Shown in pieces: positions 34,252-47,402 of a stretch of 64,000 nt of DNA (its first letter is position 1; every line of letters starts with the position of its first letter). Source of the DNA: Promethearchaeati archaeon (lineage in GTDB: Archaea > Asgardarchaeota > Heimdallarchaeia > JABLTI01). The notes beneath the pieces are model-generated. The model did no database searches. It had not been told where the DNA came from and was given only the letters and a program-made list of their open reading frames with translations. The position numbers and the translations under genes were made by a program. The stretch lies in NCBI GenBank assembly GCA_013166835.1, contig JABLTI010000002.1:594-64593 (forward strand), read 5' to 3'.

Positions 34252-35172
34252 TTGTCACAATTAACAGATGAAGAGCTTGAGAAGTATCGAGAAGCTGGGA
34301 AAATTGCGGTAGAAGTTATGCGAAAAGCTAAGAAATTGGTTTCTAAAGGTAGAAAACTCCTCATTATCTGCGAAACTTTAGAAAAGGAAATAATTCGTTT
34401 GGGAGCCAAACCGGCTTTTCCTGTCAATATTTCTATAAATCAAATTGCAGCTCATTATACTTCTCCAATTGATGATGAATTAAAAATTCCTGAACGAGCT
34501 ATTGTTAAAATTGATTTAGGAGCTCATATCGATGGTTATATCTCTGATCATGCTAAGACGTTTCTAGTTGGTGGTACAAAAACTTATCAGAAATTAAAGA
34601 AAACTGCTGAACTAGCACTTCAAAATGCCGTTGATTTTGTTAAACCAGGTGTACGACCGAGTGATATAGGGGAGGTTATAGAGAATACCATAAGAAACGA
34701 AGATTTAATCCCAATAACTGATCTTACGGGGCATGTTATCGAAAGGTGGAAGCTTCATACCGGCACTAGTATACCCAATTATAAACCAAAATTAGATATT
34801 TTTGGCTCAAAATTAAAACAAGGTCAAGTTTTAGCTATTGAACCATTCGTAACAACATCAGAAGGAACTGAAAAAATCTATGATGAATCCTATAGTTTCA
34901 TCTTTTCACAAATAGGAAAGAAGGCAAAATCAGAAGATGGGAAGATTTTGTTAAAAGAAATTGAACAATATAATAAATTGCCATTTGCTTTAAGGTGGTT
35001 AGAAGGGTTATTCCCTCAGACAAGACTTTTTGAAGCATTAAAGGAACTTATCTCATTCAAAACATTAAATCGATATCCTATGCTTGTAAGTAAAAGCCAA
35101 ACTCCTGTAGCTCAAGCAGAGCATACTATTATTATTACCAAGAATGGGAACGAAGTTATAACAAAACTCTAA
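34252..35172 (+). CDS. map: methionine aminopeptidase, type 2 (archaeal/eukaryotic type)
   Basis: Pita-bread metal ligands in DLGAHIDGY, GHVIERW.LH, AIEPF and AQAEHT, with the type-2 helical insert. Confidence 0.9.
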   Translation: MSQLTDEELEKYREAGKIAVEVMRKAKKLVSKGRKLLIICETLEKEIIRLGAKPAFPVNISINQIAAHYTSPIDDELKIPERAIVKIDLGAHIDGYISDHAKTFLVGGTKTYQKLKKTAELALQNAVDFVKPGVRPSDIGEVIENTIRNEDLIPITDLTGHVIERWKLHTGTSIPNYKPKLDIFGSKLKQGQVLAIEPFVTTSEGTEKIYDESYSFIFSQIGKKAKSEDGKILLKEIEQYNKLPFALRWLEGLFPQTRLFEALKELISFKTLNRYPMLVSKSQTPVAQAEHTIIITKNGNEVITKL

Positions 35173-35256
35173 ATGTTTTTCTTTTAGCTTGCTGTTGTAC
35201 AAATAAAAACCTACAAAAGGAACATTGAACATGAATCTTTCAGAGGTTAGTTTATA

Positions 35257-36072
35257 ATGTCAAAAATGTTTCAAAGAAAAATTGTTTTACTTGGAGATCC
35301 AGGAGTTGGTAAGACAAGTTTAGTACAAAGATACATTTTTGATTCTTTTAAGAAAGACTATATGACTACACTTGGTCTAAATTTCTATGTAAGAACATTC
35401 GAGTATCCTGGAGCTAAAGTTAAGCTAATGATTTGGGACATAGCTGGTCAACAAAGCAGAAGAAAAATAGGTTTAAGATATTTACAAGGAGCTTCAGGAG
35501 CTATCCTTGCATATGATTTAACCAAAGAAGAAACTTTTGATAATTTGCCTGGTTGGTATGATGATTTAAAGGAAGCAAATGGTAAAGATGTCCCGGTTAT
35601 TGTTGTTGGCACTAAATTAGATTTAGCAAAATCAAATCGTCTTCCATTAGCTTATAATGTTAAAAAGCTGGGTGATACACCTGCTGCCAAAGCTAATTTA
35701 ATTTTCACAAGTGCGAAAACTGATACTAATGTAGATGCTGCTTTCAATTTAATCATCCAAGAAATTGTAAGTGGTTTAATACCAACACCAGATATTTCTC
35801 CAAAAATTCTAGAAGAAATAGCTACAAAGATTTTATTTTTTGTTAAAAAAGGTGATGCTTGGTCTAAAGTGGCATTAAATCATATTGAGAAAGTTGGCAA
35901 GAAATACGCTTTAGAAGTCGAAACGATAGATGCTGAAAAGGATCCTAATATTGCTGAAGCATATGGGATAACTGCATTGCCCACCATTCTTGTTGCTGGA
36001 CGTCAGTTGGTTGGTATAATACAAATTGCTCATCTCGAGAGTATTATGCACCAAATTATCGAAAACAAGTGA
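35257..36072 (+). CDS. Rab/Ras-like small GTPase fused to a C-terminal thioredoxin-fold domain lacking CxxC
   Basis: G1 GDPGVGKTS, G3 WDIAGQQ, G4 GTKLDL, G5 TSAK. Residues ~185-271 read like a small archaeal Trx/Grx (ILFFVKKGDAWSKVAL...ETIDAEKDPNIAEAYGITALPTILV.GR..VG), with DAWS where the CxxC would be. Confidence 0.8.
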   Translation: MSKMFQRKIVLLGDPGVGKTSLVQRYIFDSFKKDYMTTLGLNFYVRTFEYPGAKVKLMIWDIAGQQSRRKIGLRYLQGASGAILAYDLTKEETFDNLPGWYDDLKEANGKDVPVIVVGTKLDLAKSNRLPLAYNVKKLGDTPAAKANLIFTSAKTDTNVDAAFNLIIQEIVSGLIPTPDISPKILEEIATKILFFVKKGDAWSKVALNHIEKVGKKYALEVETIDAEKDPNIAEAYGITALPTILVAGRQLVGIIQIAHLESIMHQIIENK

Positions 36073-36074
36073 GA

Positions 36075-36881
36075 TTATTTGTATTTTTTCTGTATTTTCC
36101 CATCGGGACTGTACCCTTCTCTCATTCTATGACCAGCAATATATTGAAAAATTTTCCCTTGACAAGTTGTAAGTTTTTGTTGGATTTCAAATTCATTTGT
36201 GAAATTAATAAATTCATCAATTCTTGTTGCCAAATCCTCTAATTCATTTCTTGACAAACGGTTTCCTGCACTAGTAATGCATTGTACAAGTCCATCTGAA
36301 ACCTGAGTAAGTATTTCCTTCCCTGGAAAGAATGTAACTAGTCCAATGATTTCCCATAAAATGTTGTAGGTGATATCCTTGTTTTCTTTTTCAGAGAAAT
36401 ATTCGGCAACTTGTGATAAAGCCATAGCATAATTAAACTGAACGAAAGGATTGGTTTGATGTTTTCTCGCAAAATTACCAAGTTTAGTTAGTGTTCTATG
36501 AACATTTTTGTCCATTTCATTCATAATATAATGATAAATTAAAGCCCCTAATGCTTCACCGTAAAATTCTTGCAAATCCTCTGATTGTGACTGTGATTTT
36601 AGAATTGCTTCAATTTTAGCAATCATCTGTTCACAATCTCTGAATTTCTTTGCAACTCCAAATGGTTCCAAAGCATGTCTATAAGCTTCTGCTAATAACA
36701 ACTGAATTTCAGCATCCCCTCTATGATGCTTCACTTCTTTTTCAAAATCGCTGAGAGTTTGCACGACTGATCTGAGATTGCCAGTTTTTCCGTTCGAAAT
36801 GATTACATTAATCAAAGCTTTGAGGTTACTCGTTGAAGGCTTTGGCGACATTGTTCTCCAATCTCCGAATCTGCTTTTCAT
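36075..36881 (-). CDS. all-helical hypothetical protein downstream of a small GTPase gene
   Basis: 268-aa ORF made of helix-loop-helix repeats. No TM and no recognised motif. Confidence 0.5.
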   Translation of the reverse strand: MKSRFGDWRTMSPKPSTSNLKALINVIISNGKTGNLRSVVQTLSDFEKEVKHHRGDAEIQLLLAEAYRHALEPFGVAKKFRDCEQMIAKIEAILKSQSQSEDLQEFYGEALGALIYHYIMNEMDKNVHRTLTKLGNFARKHQTNPFVQFNYAMALSQVAEYFSEKENKDITYNILWEIIGLVTFFPGKEILTQVSDGLVQCITSAGNRLSRNELEDLATRIDEFINFTNEFEIQQKLTTCQGKIFQYIAGHRMREGYSPDGKIQKKYK

Positions 36882-36994: not shown

Positions 36995-37555
36995 TTATTT
37001 AGGTATAGTTGTGTCTTGTTTTGGGCCGTTCAGCTTCTTTTCGATTGTAGTGTCTATGATAACATTAGCAATTGCTTGAAAAACATCATCCACACCATCA
37101 CCTGTAGCTGAAGAGGTTTCAAGATATGTCTCGAAGTTATATTTTTCGTTGAGTTCTTCAAAGGAATCCAATTCAAAGGTTATACCTTGTGCCAAATCCT
37201 TTTTTCCGCCTACTAAAATTAGTTTAGTATTACTAGAATTTAAAGCTAGATCAGCCCATTCAGGAATACTATTCAAAGTATTTAGTCTTGTCAAATCAAA
37301 CATAATTACCGTAACAGTAGCACCTTTGAAGTACTTGTCAAAGATTCCCATCTGTTTGAATTGCTCTTGTCCTCCCAAATCCCATATTTGAACTAAAACA
37401 GAATGCTCCCCTGATTGTATTTCATGAGTGTGAAATGCAGCACCTATAGTTAGCTTTGTAGAATCGATAAAACTATTAGTAATATAGCGATGGATTAATG
37501 TTGTTTTGCCAACTCCACCATCTCCTGCTAAAACTACCTTTGCTAATAGTCTCAC
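36995..37555 (-). CDS. Rab/Ras-like small GTPase
   Basis: G1 GDGGVGKTT, switch-I T (KLTIGAAF), G3 WDLGGQEQF, G4 GGKKDL, G5 TSSATG. 186 aa. Confidence 0.85.
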   Translation of the reverse strand: MRLLAKVVLAGDGGVGKTTLIHRYITNSFIDSTKLTIGAAFHTHEIQSGEHSVLVQIWDLGGQEQFKQMGIFDKYFKGATVTVIMFDLTRLNTLNSIPEWADLALNSSNTKLILVGGKKDLAQGITFELDSFEELNEKYNFETYLETSSATGDGVDDVFQAIANVIIDTTIEKKLNGPKQDTTIPK

Positions 37556-38010: not shown

Positions 38011-39132
38011 ATGACATTTGATTCCTTACAAAAAACACTGCCACAGAGCAAAGAAACAATCGACCAAAGCTTTTTTGTTAAGAAGTGTTTAACAAATAGT
38101 GGACTTGAATTGAGTACAAATGAATTGGAATCCGAAATCGTTCGTTGCGAACAATGTAATTTTCCATTGAGATCTGGGATTACTACAGAAGATAGTTCAG
38201 AAGAAGATCATGAGGAACTATCTAATTTATCAGATAGACTAACGAGAAAGGGAACATACGAAGTTTGTAAGATTTGTTGGCGAGAAAGAATCTTCAATTA
38301 TGTTTTAATTGGAAGTTATGTTGTTTTTGGGCTTTTGTTCATTGTTTGTATAATCGGGGTAGTATATGATAAACTCTCAATAAATATTTGTCTAATTATA
38401 GGTTGCCTTGAAATAATTTTCCTATTATTTTTCGGTCGATTTTTAGAAGATGCTGTTTTCTTTGGTTTGACAAAACGAGAGAAACTTCTTGCTGCATTGT
38501 ATCGATATTCATTAACTGCGGAAATGCAAGCATTTGATATTGTGTTAAAGTATTTTGGAAAAAACATAAGTGTTGATTCTGAATTAATTCGCGGATTATT
38601 ACAAGTAACTATTTTTCAACCAACAAATTTACCTACAAATTGGTTTGTCGATATTAGTCACAGAATAGACTCTAATCCAAAAGAATTCATAAAATTACTT
38701 GTTGCAGAGATTGATGAACCAAATGAAGAAAAATATATTCGTGAAGTAATTGATCAAGCACCACCCTCAGGAATTTCTCTTTTAGTTGAACTTTTTCTGA
38801 TTACAGAAAATAAATATGGTATAAAATTATTACAGGAGCGAATTACAAAGGAACTCTCCAATGATTCTATTGATAATAAATTTTTGAATGAATTCTATAT
38901 CTATAAACAAAAGTATCAGAAAGCATTACTAAATATCGAAAAACAAGACACTTACTCACAAATAGAAGAGAGTTTAACAGACTTTCATGAACCCAAAGTC
39001 CCAACAATAGATGTTATTGAAAGCAGTAGAAATATCATTCAAAGAAATCCCTTTCTACGCTATATCTTTAGGATTTTTCTTTACATATTTTTAGCCTTCA
39101 TTTTAGGCTTATTGTATCAGTTATTTGATTAG
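38011..39132 (+). CDS. zinc-ribbon membrane protein, function unknown
   Basis: CEQC...CKIC pair, two central TM helices, a ~200-aa soluble region, and a C-terminal TM helix (IFRIFLYIFLAFILGLLY). Confidence 0.5.
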   Translation: MTFDSLQKTLPQSKETIDQSFFVKKCLTNSGLELSTNELESEIVRCEQCNFPLRSGITTEDSSEEDHEELSNLSDRLTRKGTYEVCKICWRERIFNYVLIGSYVVFGLLFIVCIIGVVYDKLSINICLIIGCLEIIFLLFFGRFLEDAVFFGLTKREKLLAALYRYSLTAEMQAFDIVLKYFGKNISVDSELIRGLLQVTIFQPTNLPTNWFVDISHRIDSNPKEFIKLLVAEIDEPNEEKYIREVIDQAPPSGISLLVELFLITENKYGIKLLQERITKELSNDSIDNKFLNEFYIYKQKYQKALLNIEKQDTYSQIEESLTDFHEPKVPTIDVIESSRNIIQRNPFLRYIFRIFLYIFLAFILGLLYQLFD

Positions 39133-46652: not shown

Positions 46653-47402
46653 ATGACTGATTTTGTAAATATCCGAAGAAACATAATCGCTGAAAAAGAA
46701 CGACTTGAGAGATTAGCAACTAGCTCAAATCAGAAAATAGCTGATACTGTTAATGAACTTCAGAATGCAGTGGAATTCTTAGATAAAACTGAAGCCACTT
46801 TTAAAGAAATGTCTCAAAATCTTGCTGATCGTAAGAGAGATGAAATTAATAGCAAAGATCAAAGGAAAGAATTGCTTTCAATTATTGACACATTGAAAGA
46901 AAATATAGAAAGAACGCGAATTTCAATCAAAGATGAAGAAGAAAAAAATGACTCACATGAAAAAGAAATCTCACAACTATCAATAGATCTTAGCAACACC
47001 CAGAATGAACTCTCATCTACTCAACACAAAATTACAAACATAAAAGAAAATAATGCTCTAAAAACTCAAGAGAAAACTGATGTAACAGCTAGATTGGAAA
47101 ACCAGTTGACTGAAGCTCAAAGAATTCTAACTAATCTTTCTGAGGAAAAAGAGAAAGAGGTACAACTAAGCCCTATTTTAGATTTCCTTTTGAAAGAAGT
47201 AAGAATAGACATTCCTGAAGTAGAGATATTATCCGTTTTAGCCTATCGAAATCAAGCAATGGGATTGGATGAACTAAAACAAGCGGTTTCAAAAACACCT
47301 CCAGTTATTATCTTAAAAGTAATAAGAAGCCTTGATAGTAAGGGTGTCATCAAATATGATGAGAGATTAGACACTATAGAGCTAACAGCTAATTTAGTTT
47401 AG
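46653..47402 (+). CDS. coiled-coil protein with C-terminal winged-helix-like domain (tandem paralog)
   Basis: Same length (249 vs 248 aa), the same MTD start and the same layout. wH-like tail: ILSVLAYRNQAMGLDELKQAVSKTPPVIILKVIRSLDSKGVIKYDERLDTIELTA. Sits 11 nt after the upstream stop, with GGAGGG. Confidence 0.55.
   Translation: MTDFVNIRRNIIAEKERLERLATSSNQKIADTVNELQNAVEFLDKTEATFKEMSQNLADRKRDEINSKDQRKELLSIIDTLKENIERTRISIKDEEEKNDSHEKEISQLSIDLSNTQNELSSTQHKITNIKENNALKTQEKTDVTARLENQLTEAQRILTNLSEEKEKEVQLSPILDFLLKEVRIDIPEVEILSVLAYRNQAMGLDELKQAVSKTPPVIILKVIRSLDSKGVIKYDERLDTIELTANLV

What the first reader, a model, noticed from the sequence alone, without database searches (positions are those of the whole stretch)
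35257..36072. Small GTPase fused to a thioredoxin-fold domain whose CxxC is replaced by DAWS
Residues 1-170 are a complete Rab/Ras-like G domain (G1-G5 present). Residues ~185-271 are collinear with small archaeal thioredoxin/glutaredoxin-like proteins: beta1 ILFFVKK, then the active-site position, then ...IDAEKDPNIAEAYGITALPTILV.GR. The cis-Pro region (ALPT) is retained. The redox-active CxxC reads G-D-A-W-S, so the domain cannot do thiol-disulfide chemistry. It is more likely a binding or localisation module replacing the prenylated tail of eukaryotic Rabs. A genuine two-CxxC PDO is encoded 17 kb upstream, so the loss here is specific to this gene.
Basis: partly seen in the sequence, partly recalled or inferred. 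Interest (0 to 1): 0.65.

Follow-up and report, generated by a model that had tools for sequence, protein, structure and literature searches.

The report
Rab-like GTPase fused to cysteine-free thioredoxin fold
A Heimdall-type Asgard archaeon encodes a Rab-like GTP switch permanently joined to a thioredoxin-shaped domain that has lost both catalytic cysteines yet is strictly conserved, and the same genomes carry a sister version with the cysteines intact, an undescribed pairing that hints at a link between GTPase signalling and thioredoxin-fold partners in the closest archaeal relatives of eukaryotes.

Summary
ORF 35257-36072 (+) encodes 271 aa: a complete Rab-like G domain, a short conserved linker, and a thioredoxin (Trx) fold of topology beta-alpha-beta-alpha-beta-beta-alpha. 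D-A-W-S sits exactly where C-x-x-C belongs, and the cis-Pro loop is retained. The fusion is not an artefact: three independent assemblies carry it without gaps, about 26 orthologue clusters share it, and a metatranscriptome contig crosses the junction. D, W and S are invariant, the domain has no cysteine at all, and it is under purifying selection as strong as the G domain.

New here: a second GTPase-Trx family ("B", about 50 members) keeps CxxC in 38 of 40 sequences. It lies in a different conserved locus and occurs in the same assembly as family A. Whether A and B come from one fusion event is unresolved. The trees do not join them, but both share a switch-II RYL signature absent from 131 other Rab-like GTPases.

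Most likely function: a GTP switch with a built-in, non-redox Trx-fold binding module. No partner was identified. A KaiB-like adaptor role is a weaker rival. The idea that the domain replaces a prenyl tail has no support.

No paper in the held library describes this architecture, and databases call these proteins just "GTP-binding protein". Verdict: a new variant of a known kind, of moderate interest.

The parts
35257..36072 (+). Whole gene: 271-aa Rab-like GTPase fused to a Cys-less Trx fold (family A)
   Evidence: ORF. 26 full-length orthologue clusters. Gap-free in independent assemblies. An upstream TATA-like A/T stretch and GAGGT 8-9 nt before the ATG, read.
35269..35772 (+). Rab-like G domain (residues 5-172) with G1-G5 and the catalytic Gln65
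   Evidence: Pfam Ras 7.5e-41. All 60 top PDB sequence hits are Rabs, about 1e-31. Foldseek top 50 are all Rabs. Motifs tabulated.
35293..35319 (+). P-loop (G1), GDPGVGKTS
   Evidence: Invariant in family A.
35476..35484 (+). Switch-II RYL signature shared by families A and B only
   Evidence: Present in 10/10 family A, 10/12 family B and 0/131 other Rab-like GTPases.
35773..35826 (+). Linker (residues 173-190) with invariant P178-D179-x-x-P182; low model confidence
   Evidence: Alignment. pLDDT below 50 for residues 177-184. Higher pN than either domain.
35827..36063 (+). Thioredoxin-fold domain (residues 191-269), b-a-b-a-b-b-a, no cysteine
   Evidence: AF2. Foldseek. hhalign. Translation. 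Purifying selection.
35854..35865 (+). D-A-W-S in the place of C-x-x-C; D, W and S are invariant
35977..35988 (+). cis-Pro loop L-P-T-I (P242-T243 invariant)
36075..36851 (-). Convergent neighbour: ~258-aa all-helical protein without detectable relatives (true start probably M11 of the listed ORF). A link to the fusion is not established.
   Evidence: Syntenic in L001-L004, L038 and L039.
36995..37555 (-). Second Rab-like small GTPase (186 aa), same strand as the helical protein. A link to the fusion is not established.
   Evidence: Pfam Ras 1.8e-35. 32% identical to the family A G domain.

Best explanation
The gene encodes a functional Rab-like GTP/GDP switch whose C-terminus carries a built-in, redox-dead thioredoxin-fold module. 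That module descends from a small archaeal CxxC thioredoxin. It lost both cysteines (C-x-x-C became D-x-W-S) and is now kept as a non-covalent protein- or peptide-binding domain that uses the canonical Trx substrate groove: the DxWS loop, the cis-Pro loop and the V-G-I loop after strand b4. The nucleotide state of the G domain would control access to, or the position of, this binding module, or partner binding would feed back on the switch.

Shown: the architecture, the fold, the absence of cysteines, the invariance of the motif, purifying selection, coexistence with a CxxC-bearing sister fusion in one assembly, and transcription of the fused frame in a close relative.

Inferred: that the groove binds a partner, that binding is coupled to the GTPase cycle, and the identity of the partner, which is unknown.
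For: - G domain complete and Rab-like.
- Trx fold. Closest by profile to free-standing CxxC thioredoxins, with DAWS lying over CxxC.
- No Cys in the domain in 27/27 orthologues. D200, W202, S203, P242-T243 and R249-x-L-V-G-I-x-Q-I are invariant. These map to the three loops that line the substrate groove in thioredoxins; that mapping is established knowledge of the fold, not tested here in 3D.
- pN is 0.11-0.16 against pS 0.59-0.83 in the Trx domain, the same as in the G domain.
- The family is a single tight cluster among 1.84 billion representatives, and no free-standing copy was found.
- Family B keeps CxxC in 38/40 sequences and occurs in the same assembly, so the redox-competent form is not missing from these genomes and family A is a specialised derivative.
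- A metatranscriptome contig spans the domain junction.
Against: - No binding partner was found.
- The conserved neighbours (helical protein, second GTPase) are convergent, so not co-transcribed, and their conservation cannot be separated from the synteny of the whole block among fairly close relatives.
- I could not inspect the 3D position of the invariant residues or the inter-domain geometry. The full-length model has pLDDT 72, its five models range 54-72, and no PAE was available.
- The invariance of D, S and H209 could also mean a non-thiol chemistry or a ligand site and not simple binding.
Confidence: 0.55

Rival explanations
1. KaiB/SasA-type adaptor. The Cys-less Trx fold works like KaiB or the N-terminal domain of SasA, a Trx-like fold that docks on a KaiC/RecA-type ATPase ring. 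The fusion would put such docking under GTPase control.
For: - The domain profile retrieves Cys-less free-standing proteins that pass Pfam's KaiB threshold (P0141 35.9, P0137 32.7, P0129 28.3, P0131 27.5 bits; cut-off 27). One of this type sits just after two KaiC genes (L041).
- hhalign of family A against this KaiB-like set gives 98.4%, E 1e-14.
- The closest free-standing relative, P0123, lies in a cluster: Ras-like GTPase, Roadblock-like protein, Trx, KaiC, KaiC-like.
- KaiB (8fwj, 0.009) and SasA (0.05) appear in the PDB sequence search, and KaiB 4kun in Foldseek at TM 0.67-0.70.
Against: - The window protein scores only 16 bits on Pfam KaiB (cut-off 27).
- CxxC thioredoxins are clearly closer by profile (E 1.4e-24 against 1e-14), and thioredoxins or thioredoxin-fold proteins fill the first 44 Foldseek ranks.
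- There is no KaiC-type gene in the 64-kb window or in any family A or B locus.
- The GTPase-Trx-KaiC cluster was seen in one organism only (L035, L036 and L040 are identical).
Confidence: 0.15
2. Localisation module. The Trx fold takes the place of the prenylated C-terminal tail and targets the GTPase to a membrane or another cellular site.
For: - The domain occupies the C-terminal position where eukaryotic Rabs carry their hypervariable tail and prenyl cysteines.
- The protein has no C-terminal Cys.
- A targeting role would be a special case of partner binding.
Against: - Characterised Asgard Rab-like GTPases lack tails and prenylation machinery altogether (PMC10933270), so there is no tail to replace.
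- No hydrophobic or amphipathic membrane-binding segment is apparent in the sequence beyond the Trx helices.
- No membrane-protein partner is co-transcribed with it.
Confidence: 0.12
3. Residual or new chemistry. The invariant D200, S203 and H209 form a non-thiol catalytic or metal/ligand-binding site at the N-terminus of helix a1.
For: D200, W202, S203, H209 and E211 are invariant over 27 sequences. Ser occupies the position of the resolving Cys, as in CGFS-type monothiol glutaredoxins. A relative, P0136, has the intermediate motif C-A-F-S.
Against: No precedent known to me for a Ser/Asp/His catalytic site at this place in a Trx fold. H209 lies almost two helical turns from S203. Nothing here tests chemistry.
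Confidence: 0.06
4. Artefactual fusion of two genes through a sequencing or assembly error.
For: None found.
Against: - Three independent assemblies are gap-free and identical inside the ORF.
- 26 orthologue clusters from four data sources have the same single ORF.
- The linker carries invariant residues.
- An RNA-derived contig crosses the junction.
- The only 'free-standing' copies are truncated fragments (P0121 on a 510-bp contig; P0122 identical to part of P0022).
Confidence: 0.01

Closest known systems
Asgard Rab-like small GTPases (for example Thor-Rab, PDB 7EZB; PMC10933270)
   Same: Rab-like G domain with G1-G5 and the catalytic Gln. No C-terminal prenylation cysteines. Found in Asgard archaea, which encode many such paralogues. 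The closest solved structures are Rab8, Rab1, Rab43 and Sec4.
   Different: The described Asgard small GTPases are either bare G domains or fused to longin or Roadblock domains (PMC10933270; bioRxiv 2020.10.19.343400). A C-terminal Trx-fold domain is not mentioned in any paper I could search.
Small archaeal thioredoxins of the MJ0307 / Thioredoxin_3 type (PDB 1fo5, 6mos, 4xhm)
   Same: Same minimal b-a-b-a-b-b-a fold, the cis-Pro loop, and the pattern '...IDxxxxPxxAxxYGxxxxPTxxxxG...'. Best profile and fold matches.
   Different: CxxC is replaced by invariant D-x-W-S and there is no Cys in the domain. It is never free-standing and is always fused behind a G domain. It falls below the curated thresholds of all Trx family models.
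Family B GTPase-Trx fusion of the same archaea (P0128 and about 50 relatives)
   Same: Same two-domain architecture, similar length, collinear alignment over both domains (33% identity, 9e-52). Same P-loop Pro, the shared RYL switch-II signature, and Trp at the third position of the motif (CxWC in 27/40). Occurs in the same assembly.
   Different: CxxC is intact in 38/40 sequences. G4 is NKID, not TKLD. It sits in a different conserved locus (Rpr2, B, TrmI-like, ProRS, Roadblock). The Trx domains are only 24% identical. An A+B clade gets 20/200 bootstraps.
KaiB and the N-terminal domain of SasA (non-redox Trx-like folds that bind KaiC)
   Same: Trx-like fold without catalytic cysteines, used purely for protein-protein binding. 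Detectable sequence similarity.
   Different: Below the Pfam KaiB threshold (16 bits against 27). No KaiC nearby. CxxC thioredoxins are closer.
Other catalytically dead Trx-fold binding modules: PDI b and b' domains, phosducin's C-terminal domain, Dim1/TXNL4A, CnoX/YbbN. Also RJL/DNAJC27, a Rab-like G domain with a C-terminal J domain. (All from my own knowledge.)
   Same: Precedents that a Trx fold without CxxC serves as a binding platform, and that a Rab-like G domain can carry a C-terminal chaperone-type domain. YbbN (3qou) appears among the fold hits (rank 39).
   Different: No detectable specific sequence relationship. None of them combines a small GTPase with a Trx fold.

Membership tests
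Ras-superfamily small GTPase | G1-G5 nucleotide-binding motifs and a Ras-family HMM match above threshold | tested here: met
   Pfam Ras 139.8 bits (cut-off 21.6) and TIGR00231 90.6 bits (cut-off 42.5). Motifs GDPGVGKTS, T37/T38, DIAGQ, TKLD and SAK.
Rab family (eukaryotic sense) | Closest solved relatives are Rabs | tested here: met
   All 60 top PDB sequence hits and all 50 top Foldseek hits are Rabs.
Rab family (eukaryotic sense) | C-terminal cysteine(s) for geranylgeranylation | tested here: not met
   The protein ends ...HQIIENK and has no Cys in the last 86 residues.
Rab family (eukaryotic sense) | RabF1-F5 signature motifs (consensus recalled from Pereira-Leal and Seabra 2000) | tested here: inconclusive
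   Read from the sequence: LGLNF (F1-like), KLMIW (F2, 4/5), SRRKIG (F3, poor), YLQGA (F4, 3/5), LAYDLT (F5, 4/6). Only a partial match, so 'Rab-like' and not a Rab.
Thioredoxin-fold superfamily | b-a-b-a-b-b-a topology with a cis-Pro loop before strand b3 | tested here: met
   AF2 secondary structure. Foldseek probability 1.00 and TM 0.74 to thioredoxins. P242 invariant. The cis conformation itself cannot be tested here.
Thioredoxin / glutaredoxin (redox enzyme) | CxxC (or at least CxxS) active site at the N-terminus of helix a1 | tested here: not met
   D-A-W-S at that position, and no Cys in the domain in 27/27 orthologues.
Thioredoxin / glutaredoxin (redox enzyme) | Score above the curated cut-off of a Trx family model | tested here: not met
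   PF00085 15.3 bits (cut-off 23.5). TIGR01068 23.7 (cut-off 96.8). TIGR00411 20.6 (cut-off 92.75)..
KaiB | Pfam KaiB (PF07689) match above the gathering score | tested here: not met
   16 bits against a cut-off of 27. Free-standing relatives P0141, P0137, P0129 and P0131 do pass.
KaiB | Genomic or physical association with a KaiC-type ATPase | tested here: not met
   No KaiC-like ORF in the window or in 12 family A or B loci by tblastn. Physical association cannot be tested here.
KaiB | Metamorphic fold switch between a ground state and a Trx-like state | not testable with these tools
   It would need NMR or structures.

The most novel reading that the evidence does not exclude
Heimdall-type Asgard archaea have wired thioredoxin-fold proteins into small-GTPase signalling. 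One fusion (family B) would be a redox-sensing or redox-acting Rab-like switch. The other (family A) would be its cysteine-free pseudo-enzyme counterpart, binding the same class of targets, or a KaiC-type ATPase, without chemistry. A split-gene version of the arrangement also exists: GTPase, Roadblock, Trx/KaiB-like, KaiC. Together these would be a previously unrecognised regulatory module in the closest archaeal relatives of eukaryotes: GTPase plus Trx-fold adaptor, with a redox-active and a redox-dead paralogue working as a pair.
Probability: 0.15. Interest if true: 0.8.

Novelty: new variant of a known kind. Interest (0 to 1): 0.55.

Why it matters
Asgard small GTPases are studied as forerunners of the eukaryotic Rab, Arf and Rag systems, and how they reach their targets without lipid tails is an open question. 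A conserved Rab-like switch carrying its own thioredoxin-fold module is a concrete, testable case of how such a GTPase could be coupled to a partner. It exists in a redox-competent and a redox-dead version within one genome. The pair also offers a natural experiment in pseudo-enzyme evolution: the same architecture with and without cysteines. Both proteins are small and soluble-looking, so they should be easy to express. Public databases currently label them only 'GTP-binding protein', and the Trx domain of family A escapes all curated family models.

Tried and rejected
- The homology search with the C-terminal domain alone through the word-indexed database found only two truncated fragments, so it was uninformative. 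The filter-free profile search was needed.
It could not settle co-occurrence or taxonomy. Co-occurrence was settled instead through accession numbers and directly through one assembly.
- The helical neighbour gave no Pfam, NCBIfam, PADLOC or PDB-sequence match.
- A functional link to the neighbours was considered and set aside. The orientation is convergent, and the whole 12-kb block is syntenic in all family A genomes, so the signal is not specific.
- A KaiC link for the fusions themselves was considered. No KaiC is near any family A or B locus.
- Family A as a direct derivative of family B was not supported by the G-domain tree (20/200 bootstraps) or by Trx-domain similarity. The shared RYL signature keeps common origin alive.
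- A defence-system role has no PADLOC hits.
- Seven literature searches found no description of the architecture.

Full report
**1. The observation**

- The 84-nt gap upstream contains an A/T-rich TATA-like stretch and GAGGT 8-9 nt before the ATG (read).
- Residues 8-170 match Pfam Ras at 7.5e-41 and TIGR00231 at 8.9e-26.
- All five G motifs are present: GDPGVGKTS, T37/T38, DIAGQ with the catalytic Gln65, TKLD and SAK.
- By sequence and by predicted structure, the nearest solved proteins are all Rabs: Sec4, Rab43, Rab8A and Rab1 at about 1e-31, and the Foldseek top 50.
- There is no C-terminal cysteine and the RabF motifs match only in part, so 'Rab-like' is the correct label.

**2. The C-terminal domain**

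Single-sequence HMM scans give only hits below the curated cut-offs, but these fall consistently on thioredoxin, MJ0307-type Trx, PDO and KaiB models. Stronger methods settle the fold:
- AF2 on the orthologue alignment gives b-a-b-a-b-b-a for residues 191-269, both in the full-length model (pLDDT 72) and in the domain alone (pLDDT 79).
- Foldseek against the PDB returns thioredoxins first (probability 1.00, TM 0.74 to 6mos). Legionella KaiB appears only at rank 45.
- A profile of the domain finds MJ0307 thioredoxin (1fo5, 1e-4) and 6mos (1.3e-4) among PDB sequences.
- A profile-profile comparison with free-standing CxxC thioredoxins gives 99.6% and E 1.4e-24.
- In the 6mos alignment, in hhalign and in the alignment with family B, D-A-W-S (35854-35865) lies on C-x-x-C.
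- The cis-Pro motif LPT is retained.

**3. Not an artefact, not decay**

- Contigs from three independent marine-sediment metagenome runs (15-63x) cover 35000-36300 without a gap and without a single difference inside the ORF.
- About 26 clusters of full-length orthologues (269-277 aa, 67-98% identity) from JGI, ENA, NCBI and Logan share the architecture. They are labelled Heimdallarchaeota, Gerdarchaeota or 'Asgard group' where a name exists.
- Similarity then drops abruptly to about 40% identity over the G domain only.
- Among 1.84 billion 50%-identity representatives, the family is one cluster.
- The only 'free-standing' copies are truncated fragments.
- D200, W202, S203, P242, T243 and R249-x-LVGI-x-QI are invariant in 27/27 sequences, and the domain has no cysteine in any of them.
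- Non-synonymous divergence in the Trx domain (pN 0.11-0.16) equals that of the G domain, while synonymous sites are near saturation (pS 0.59-0.83). dN/dS is therefore at most about 0.15.
- Metatranscriptome contigs from 90-95% identical relatives cover 35546-36099. One crosses the junction (35644-35890) without gaps, and the differences are mostly at third codon positions. This is low-depth evidence of transcription, and DNA carry-over cannot be excluded.

**4. A redox-competent sister family**

The filter-free profile search turned up P0128, a 282-aa GTPase-Trx fusion with C-T-W-C. Searching with it revealed family B, about 50 clusters of 278-291 aa with the same taxonomic labels.
- A and B align collinearly over both domains (33% identity, 9e-52).
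- B has CxxC in 38/40 sequences, and CxWC in 27/40. Two members have lost the first Cys.
- B lies in a different conserved locus: Rpr2, B, TrmI-like methyltransferase, ProRS, Roadblock/LC7, then a 424-aa protein.
- A lies in: M24 peptidase, A, then convergently a 258-aa helical protein and a second GTPase.
- Both families occur in one assembly, GCA_034660795.1 (P0026 on JAYEJY010000036, P0196 on JAYEJY010000156). Near-adjacent NCBI accession numbers suggest the same for at least four further MAGs.
- Whether the genome of this window has a B gene is unknown. There is none within the 64 kb.

**5. One fusion or two?**

Unresolved.
- Against a specific relationship: the NJ tree of 153 G domains recovers A and B each at 200/200 bootstraps but A+B at only 20/200. 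Mean A-B identity (35.7%) equals A-versus-others (36.0%).
- The Trx domains are only 24% identical, and each is closer to the free-standing thioredoxin P0123 (34% and 32%).
- hhalign ranks CxxC thioredoxins (1.4e-24) above KaiB-like proteins (1e-14) and above family B (7.9e-13). There is a caveat: the first two sets were selected as the best hits of the family A profile.
- For a relationship: the same architecture and linker length, and a switch-II RYL motif in 10/10 A and 10/12 B sequences but 0/131 of the other, closest Rab-like GTPases.
- That signature means either common ancestry or a shared constraint, for example the Trx domain touching switch II. I lean slightly to a single ancient fusion (about 0.55).

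**6. Sequence neighbourhood of the domain, and a split-gene lead**

- Besides CxxC thioredoxins, the family A profile retrieves small Cys-less proteins that pass Pfam's KaiB threshold. One of that type follows two KaiC genes in L041.
- The closest free-standing relative, P0123 (CAFC), sits in a cluster: Mrp/NBP35-type ATPase, Ras-like GTPase, Roadblock-like protein, Trx, KaiC, KaiC-like. The Trx stop abuts the KaiC start.
- This is a split-gene association of a small GTPase with this kind of Trx, but it was seen in one organism only (L035, L036 and L040 are identical). Its GTPase is not specially close to A or B (35% and 31% identity).
- No KaiC gene lies near any family A or B locus.
- P0136 (C-A-F-S) shows a possible intermediate on the path CxxC, CxxS, DxxS.

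**7. Mechanism**

I commit to this reading: a working Rab-like switch with a built-in, non-redox Trx-fold binding module that uses the canonical groove, with the nucleotide state coupled to partner binding (confidence 0.55).
- The steps that are shown and those that are inferred are listed under the best explanation.
- Rivals: a KaiB/SasA-like adaptor for a KaiC-type ATPase (0.15); a localisation module (0.12); a new non-thiol chemistry at D200/S203/H209 (0.06); an artefact (0.01).
- The conserved neighbours give no usable evidence. They are convergent, and the whole block from prefoldin to the amidohydrolase is syntenic in every family A genome examined.

**8. Comparison with what is known, and novelty**

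- Papers on Asgard small GTPases describe bare G domains and fusions to longin or Roadblock domains. They note the absence of prenylation (PMC10933270; bioRxiv 10.1101/2020.10.19.343400; PMC11914678; PMC10307638).
- None of them mentions thioredoxin, and seven full-text searches found no description of a GTPase-Trx fusion.
- The proteins are in public databases as 'GTP-binding protein', with only GTPase Pfam families recorded for family A.
- The parts are known kinds: a Rab-like GTPase, and a dead Trx fold used as a binding module. The combination, its strict conservation, and the existence of a redox-active and a redox-dead pair in one genome are new as far as I can tell. Hence the rating 'new variant of a known kind', with moderate interest.

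**9. Limits**

- No partner was identified.
- No 3D inspection or PAE was possible.
- The taxonomic range rests on submitters' labels.
- The trees are simple NJ on 164 columns.
- The RNA evidence is thin.

Noticed in passing
L035:3010-6802 (also L036 and L040, identical): A gene cluster reading: Mrp/NBP35-type ParA ATPase, Ras-like GTPase (200 aa), Roadblock-like protein (130 aa; 22.3 bits, cut-off 23), CxxC thioredoxin P0123 (also 26.2 bits to KaiB), KaiC (250 bits), KaiC-like. The Trx stop abuts the KaiC start. This may be a GTPase/Roadblock module coupled to a KaiB/KaiC-like system. Seen in one organism only.
   Followed up: partly
L031:7001-12060, L033, L034, L050 (family B loci): The CxxC-bearing GTPase-Trx fusion (family B) always lies between the RNase P subunit Rpr2 and a TrmI-like tRNA methyltransferase, followed by ProRS, a Roadblock/LC7 protein (42.8 bits) and a 424-aa protein with a weak winged-helix hit. 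Its setting among tRNA and translation genes is unexplained.
   Followed up: partly
window:36075-36851 (-) and 36995-37555 (-): A highly conserved (59-70% identity) ~258-aa all-helical protein with no Pfam, NCBIfam, PADLOC or PDB-sequence relative, apparently in an operon with a second Rab-like GTPase (186 aa). It could be a regulator or effector of that GTPase. The ORF as listed starts 10 codons too early; orthologues begin at M11.
   Followed up: partly
window:37736-37963 (+) and 38011-39132 (+): Divergent from the GTPase pair: a 75-aa protein and a 373-aa protein with CxxC...CxxC (zinc-ribbon-like) followed by hydrophobic segments. No family hits. Syntenic in all family A loci.
   Followed up: no
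window:15050-17236 (-): A 728-aa protein with FG-GAP/beta-propeller repeats (FG-GAP_3, 41 bits; weak BBS2, BBS7 and ITFG2-like hits), a central Cys-rich zinc-ribbon-like motif and a C-terminal region that looks Roadblock/longin-like by eye. This is an eukaryote-flavoured architecture that may deserve its own look.
   Followed up: partly
window:47546-48103 (+): An Arf-family small GTPase (Pfam Arf 3.2e-51), just downstream of a 249-aa coiled-coil protein with a possible C-terminal winged helix (46653-47402). This is the third small GTPase in the 64-kb window.
   Followed up: partly
window:17520-18194 (+) to 20059: A genuine two-CxxC protein disulfide oxidoreductase (TIGR02187, 225.8 bits), followed by a 395-aa protein that by eye resembles a flavodiiron-type metallo-beta-lactamase/flavodoxin fusion and a 130-aa protein resembling desulfoferrodoxin. 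This looks like an oxidative-stress cluster. The two downstream calls were made by eye only.
   Followed up: partly
P0136 / L037:1494-1826: A free-standing 110-aa Trx-like protein from a Thorarchaeota-labelled MAG with the monothiol motif C-A-F-S. It is a possible intermediate between CxxC thioredoxins and the D-x-W-S domain.
   Followed up: no
(source labels): Several family A and B proteins are deposited under implausible taxon labels: 'candidate division Zixibacteria' for HUU77779, 'Candidatus Bathyarchaeia' for HUT79674 and HUT79866, and 'Thorarchaeota' for MFW9921755. These are probably mislabelled or mis-binned Heimdall-type MAGs.
   Followed up: no
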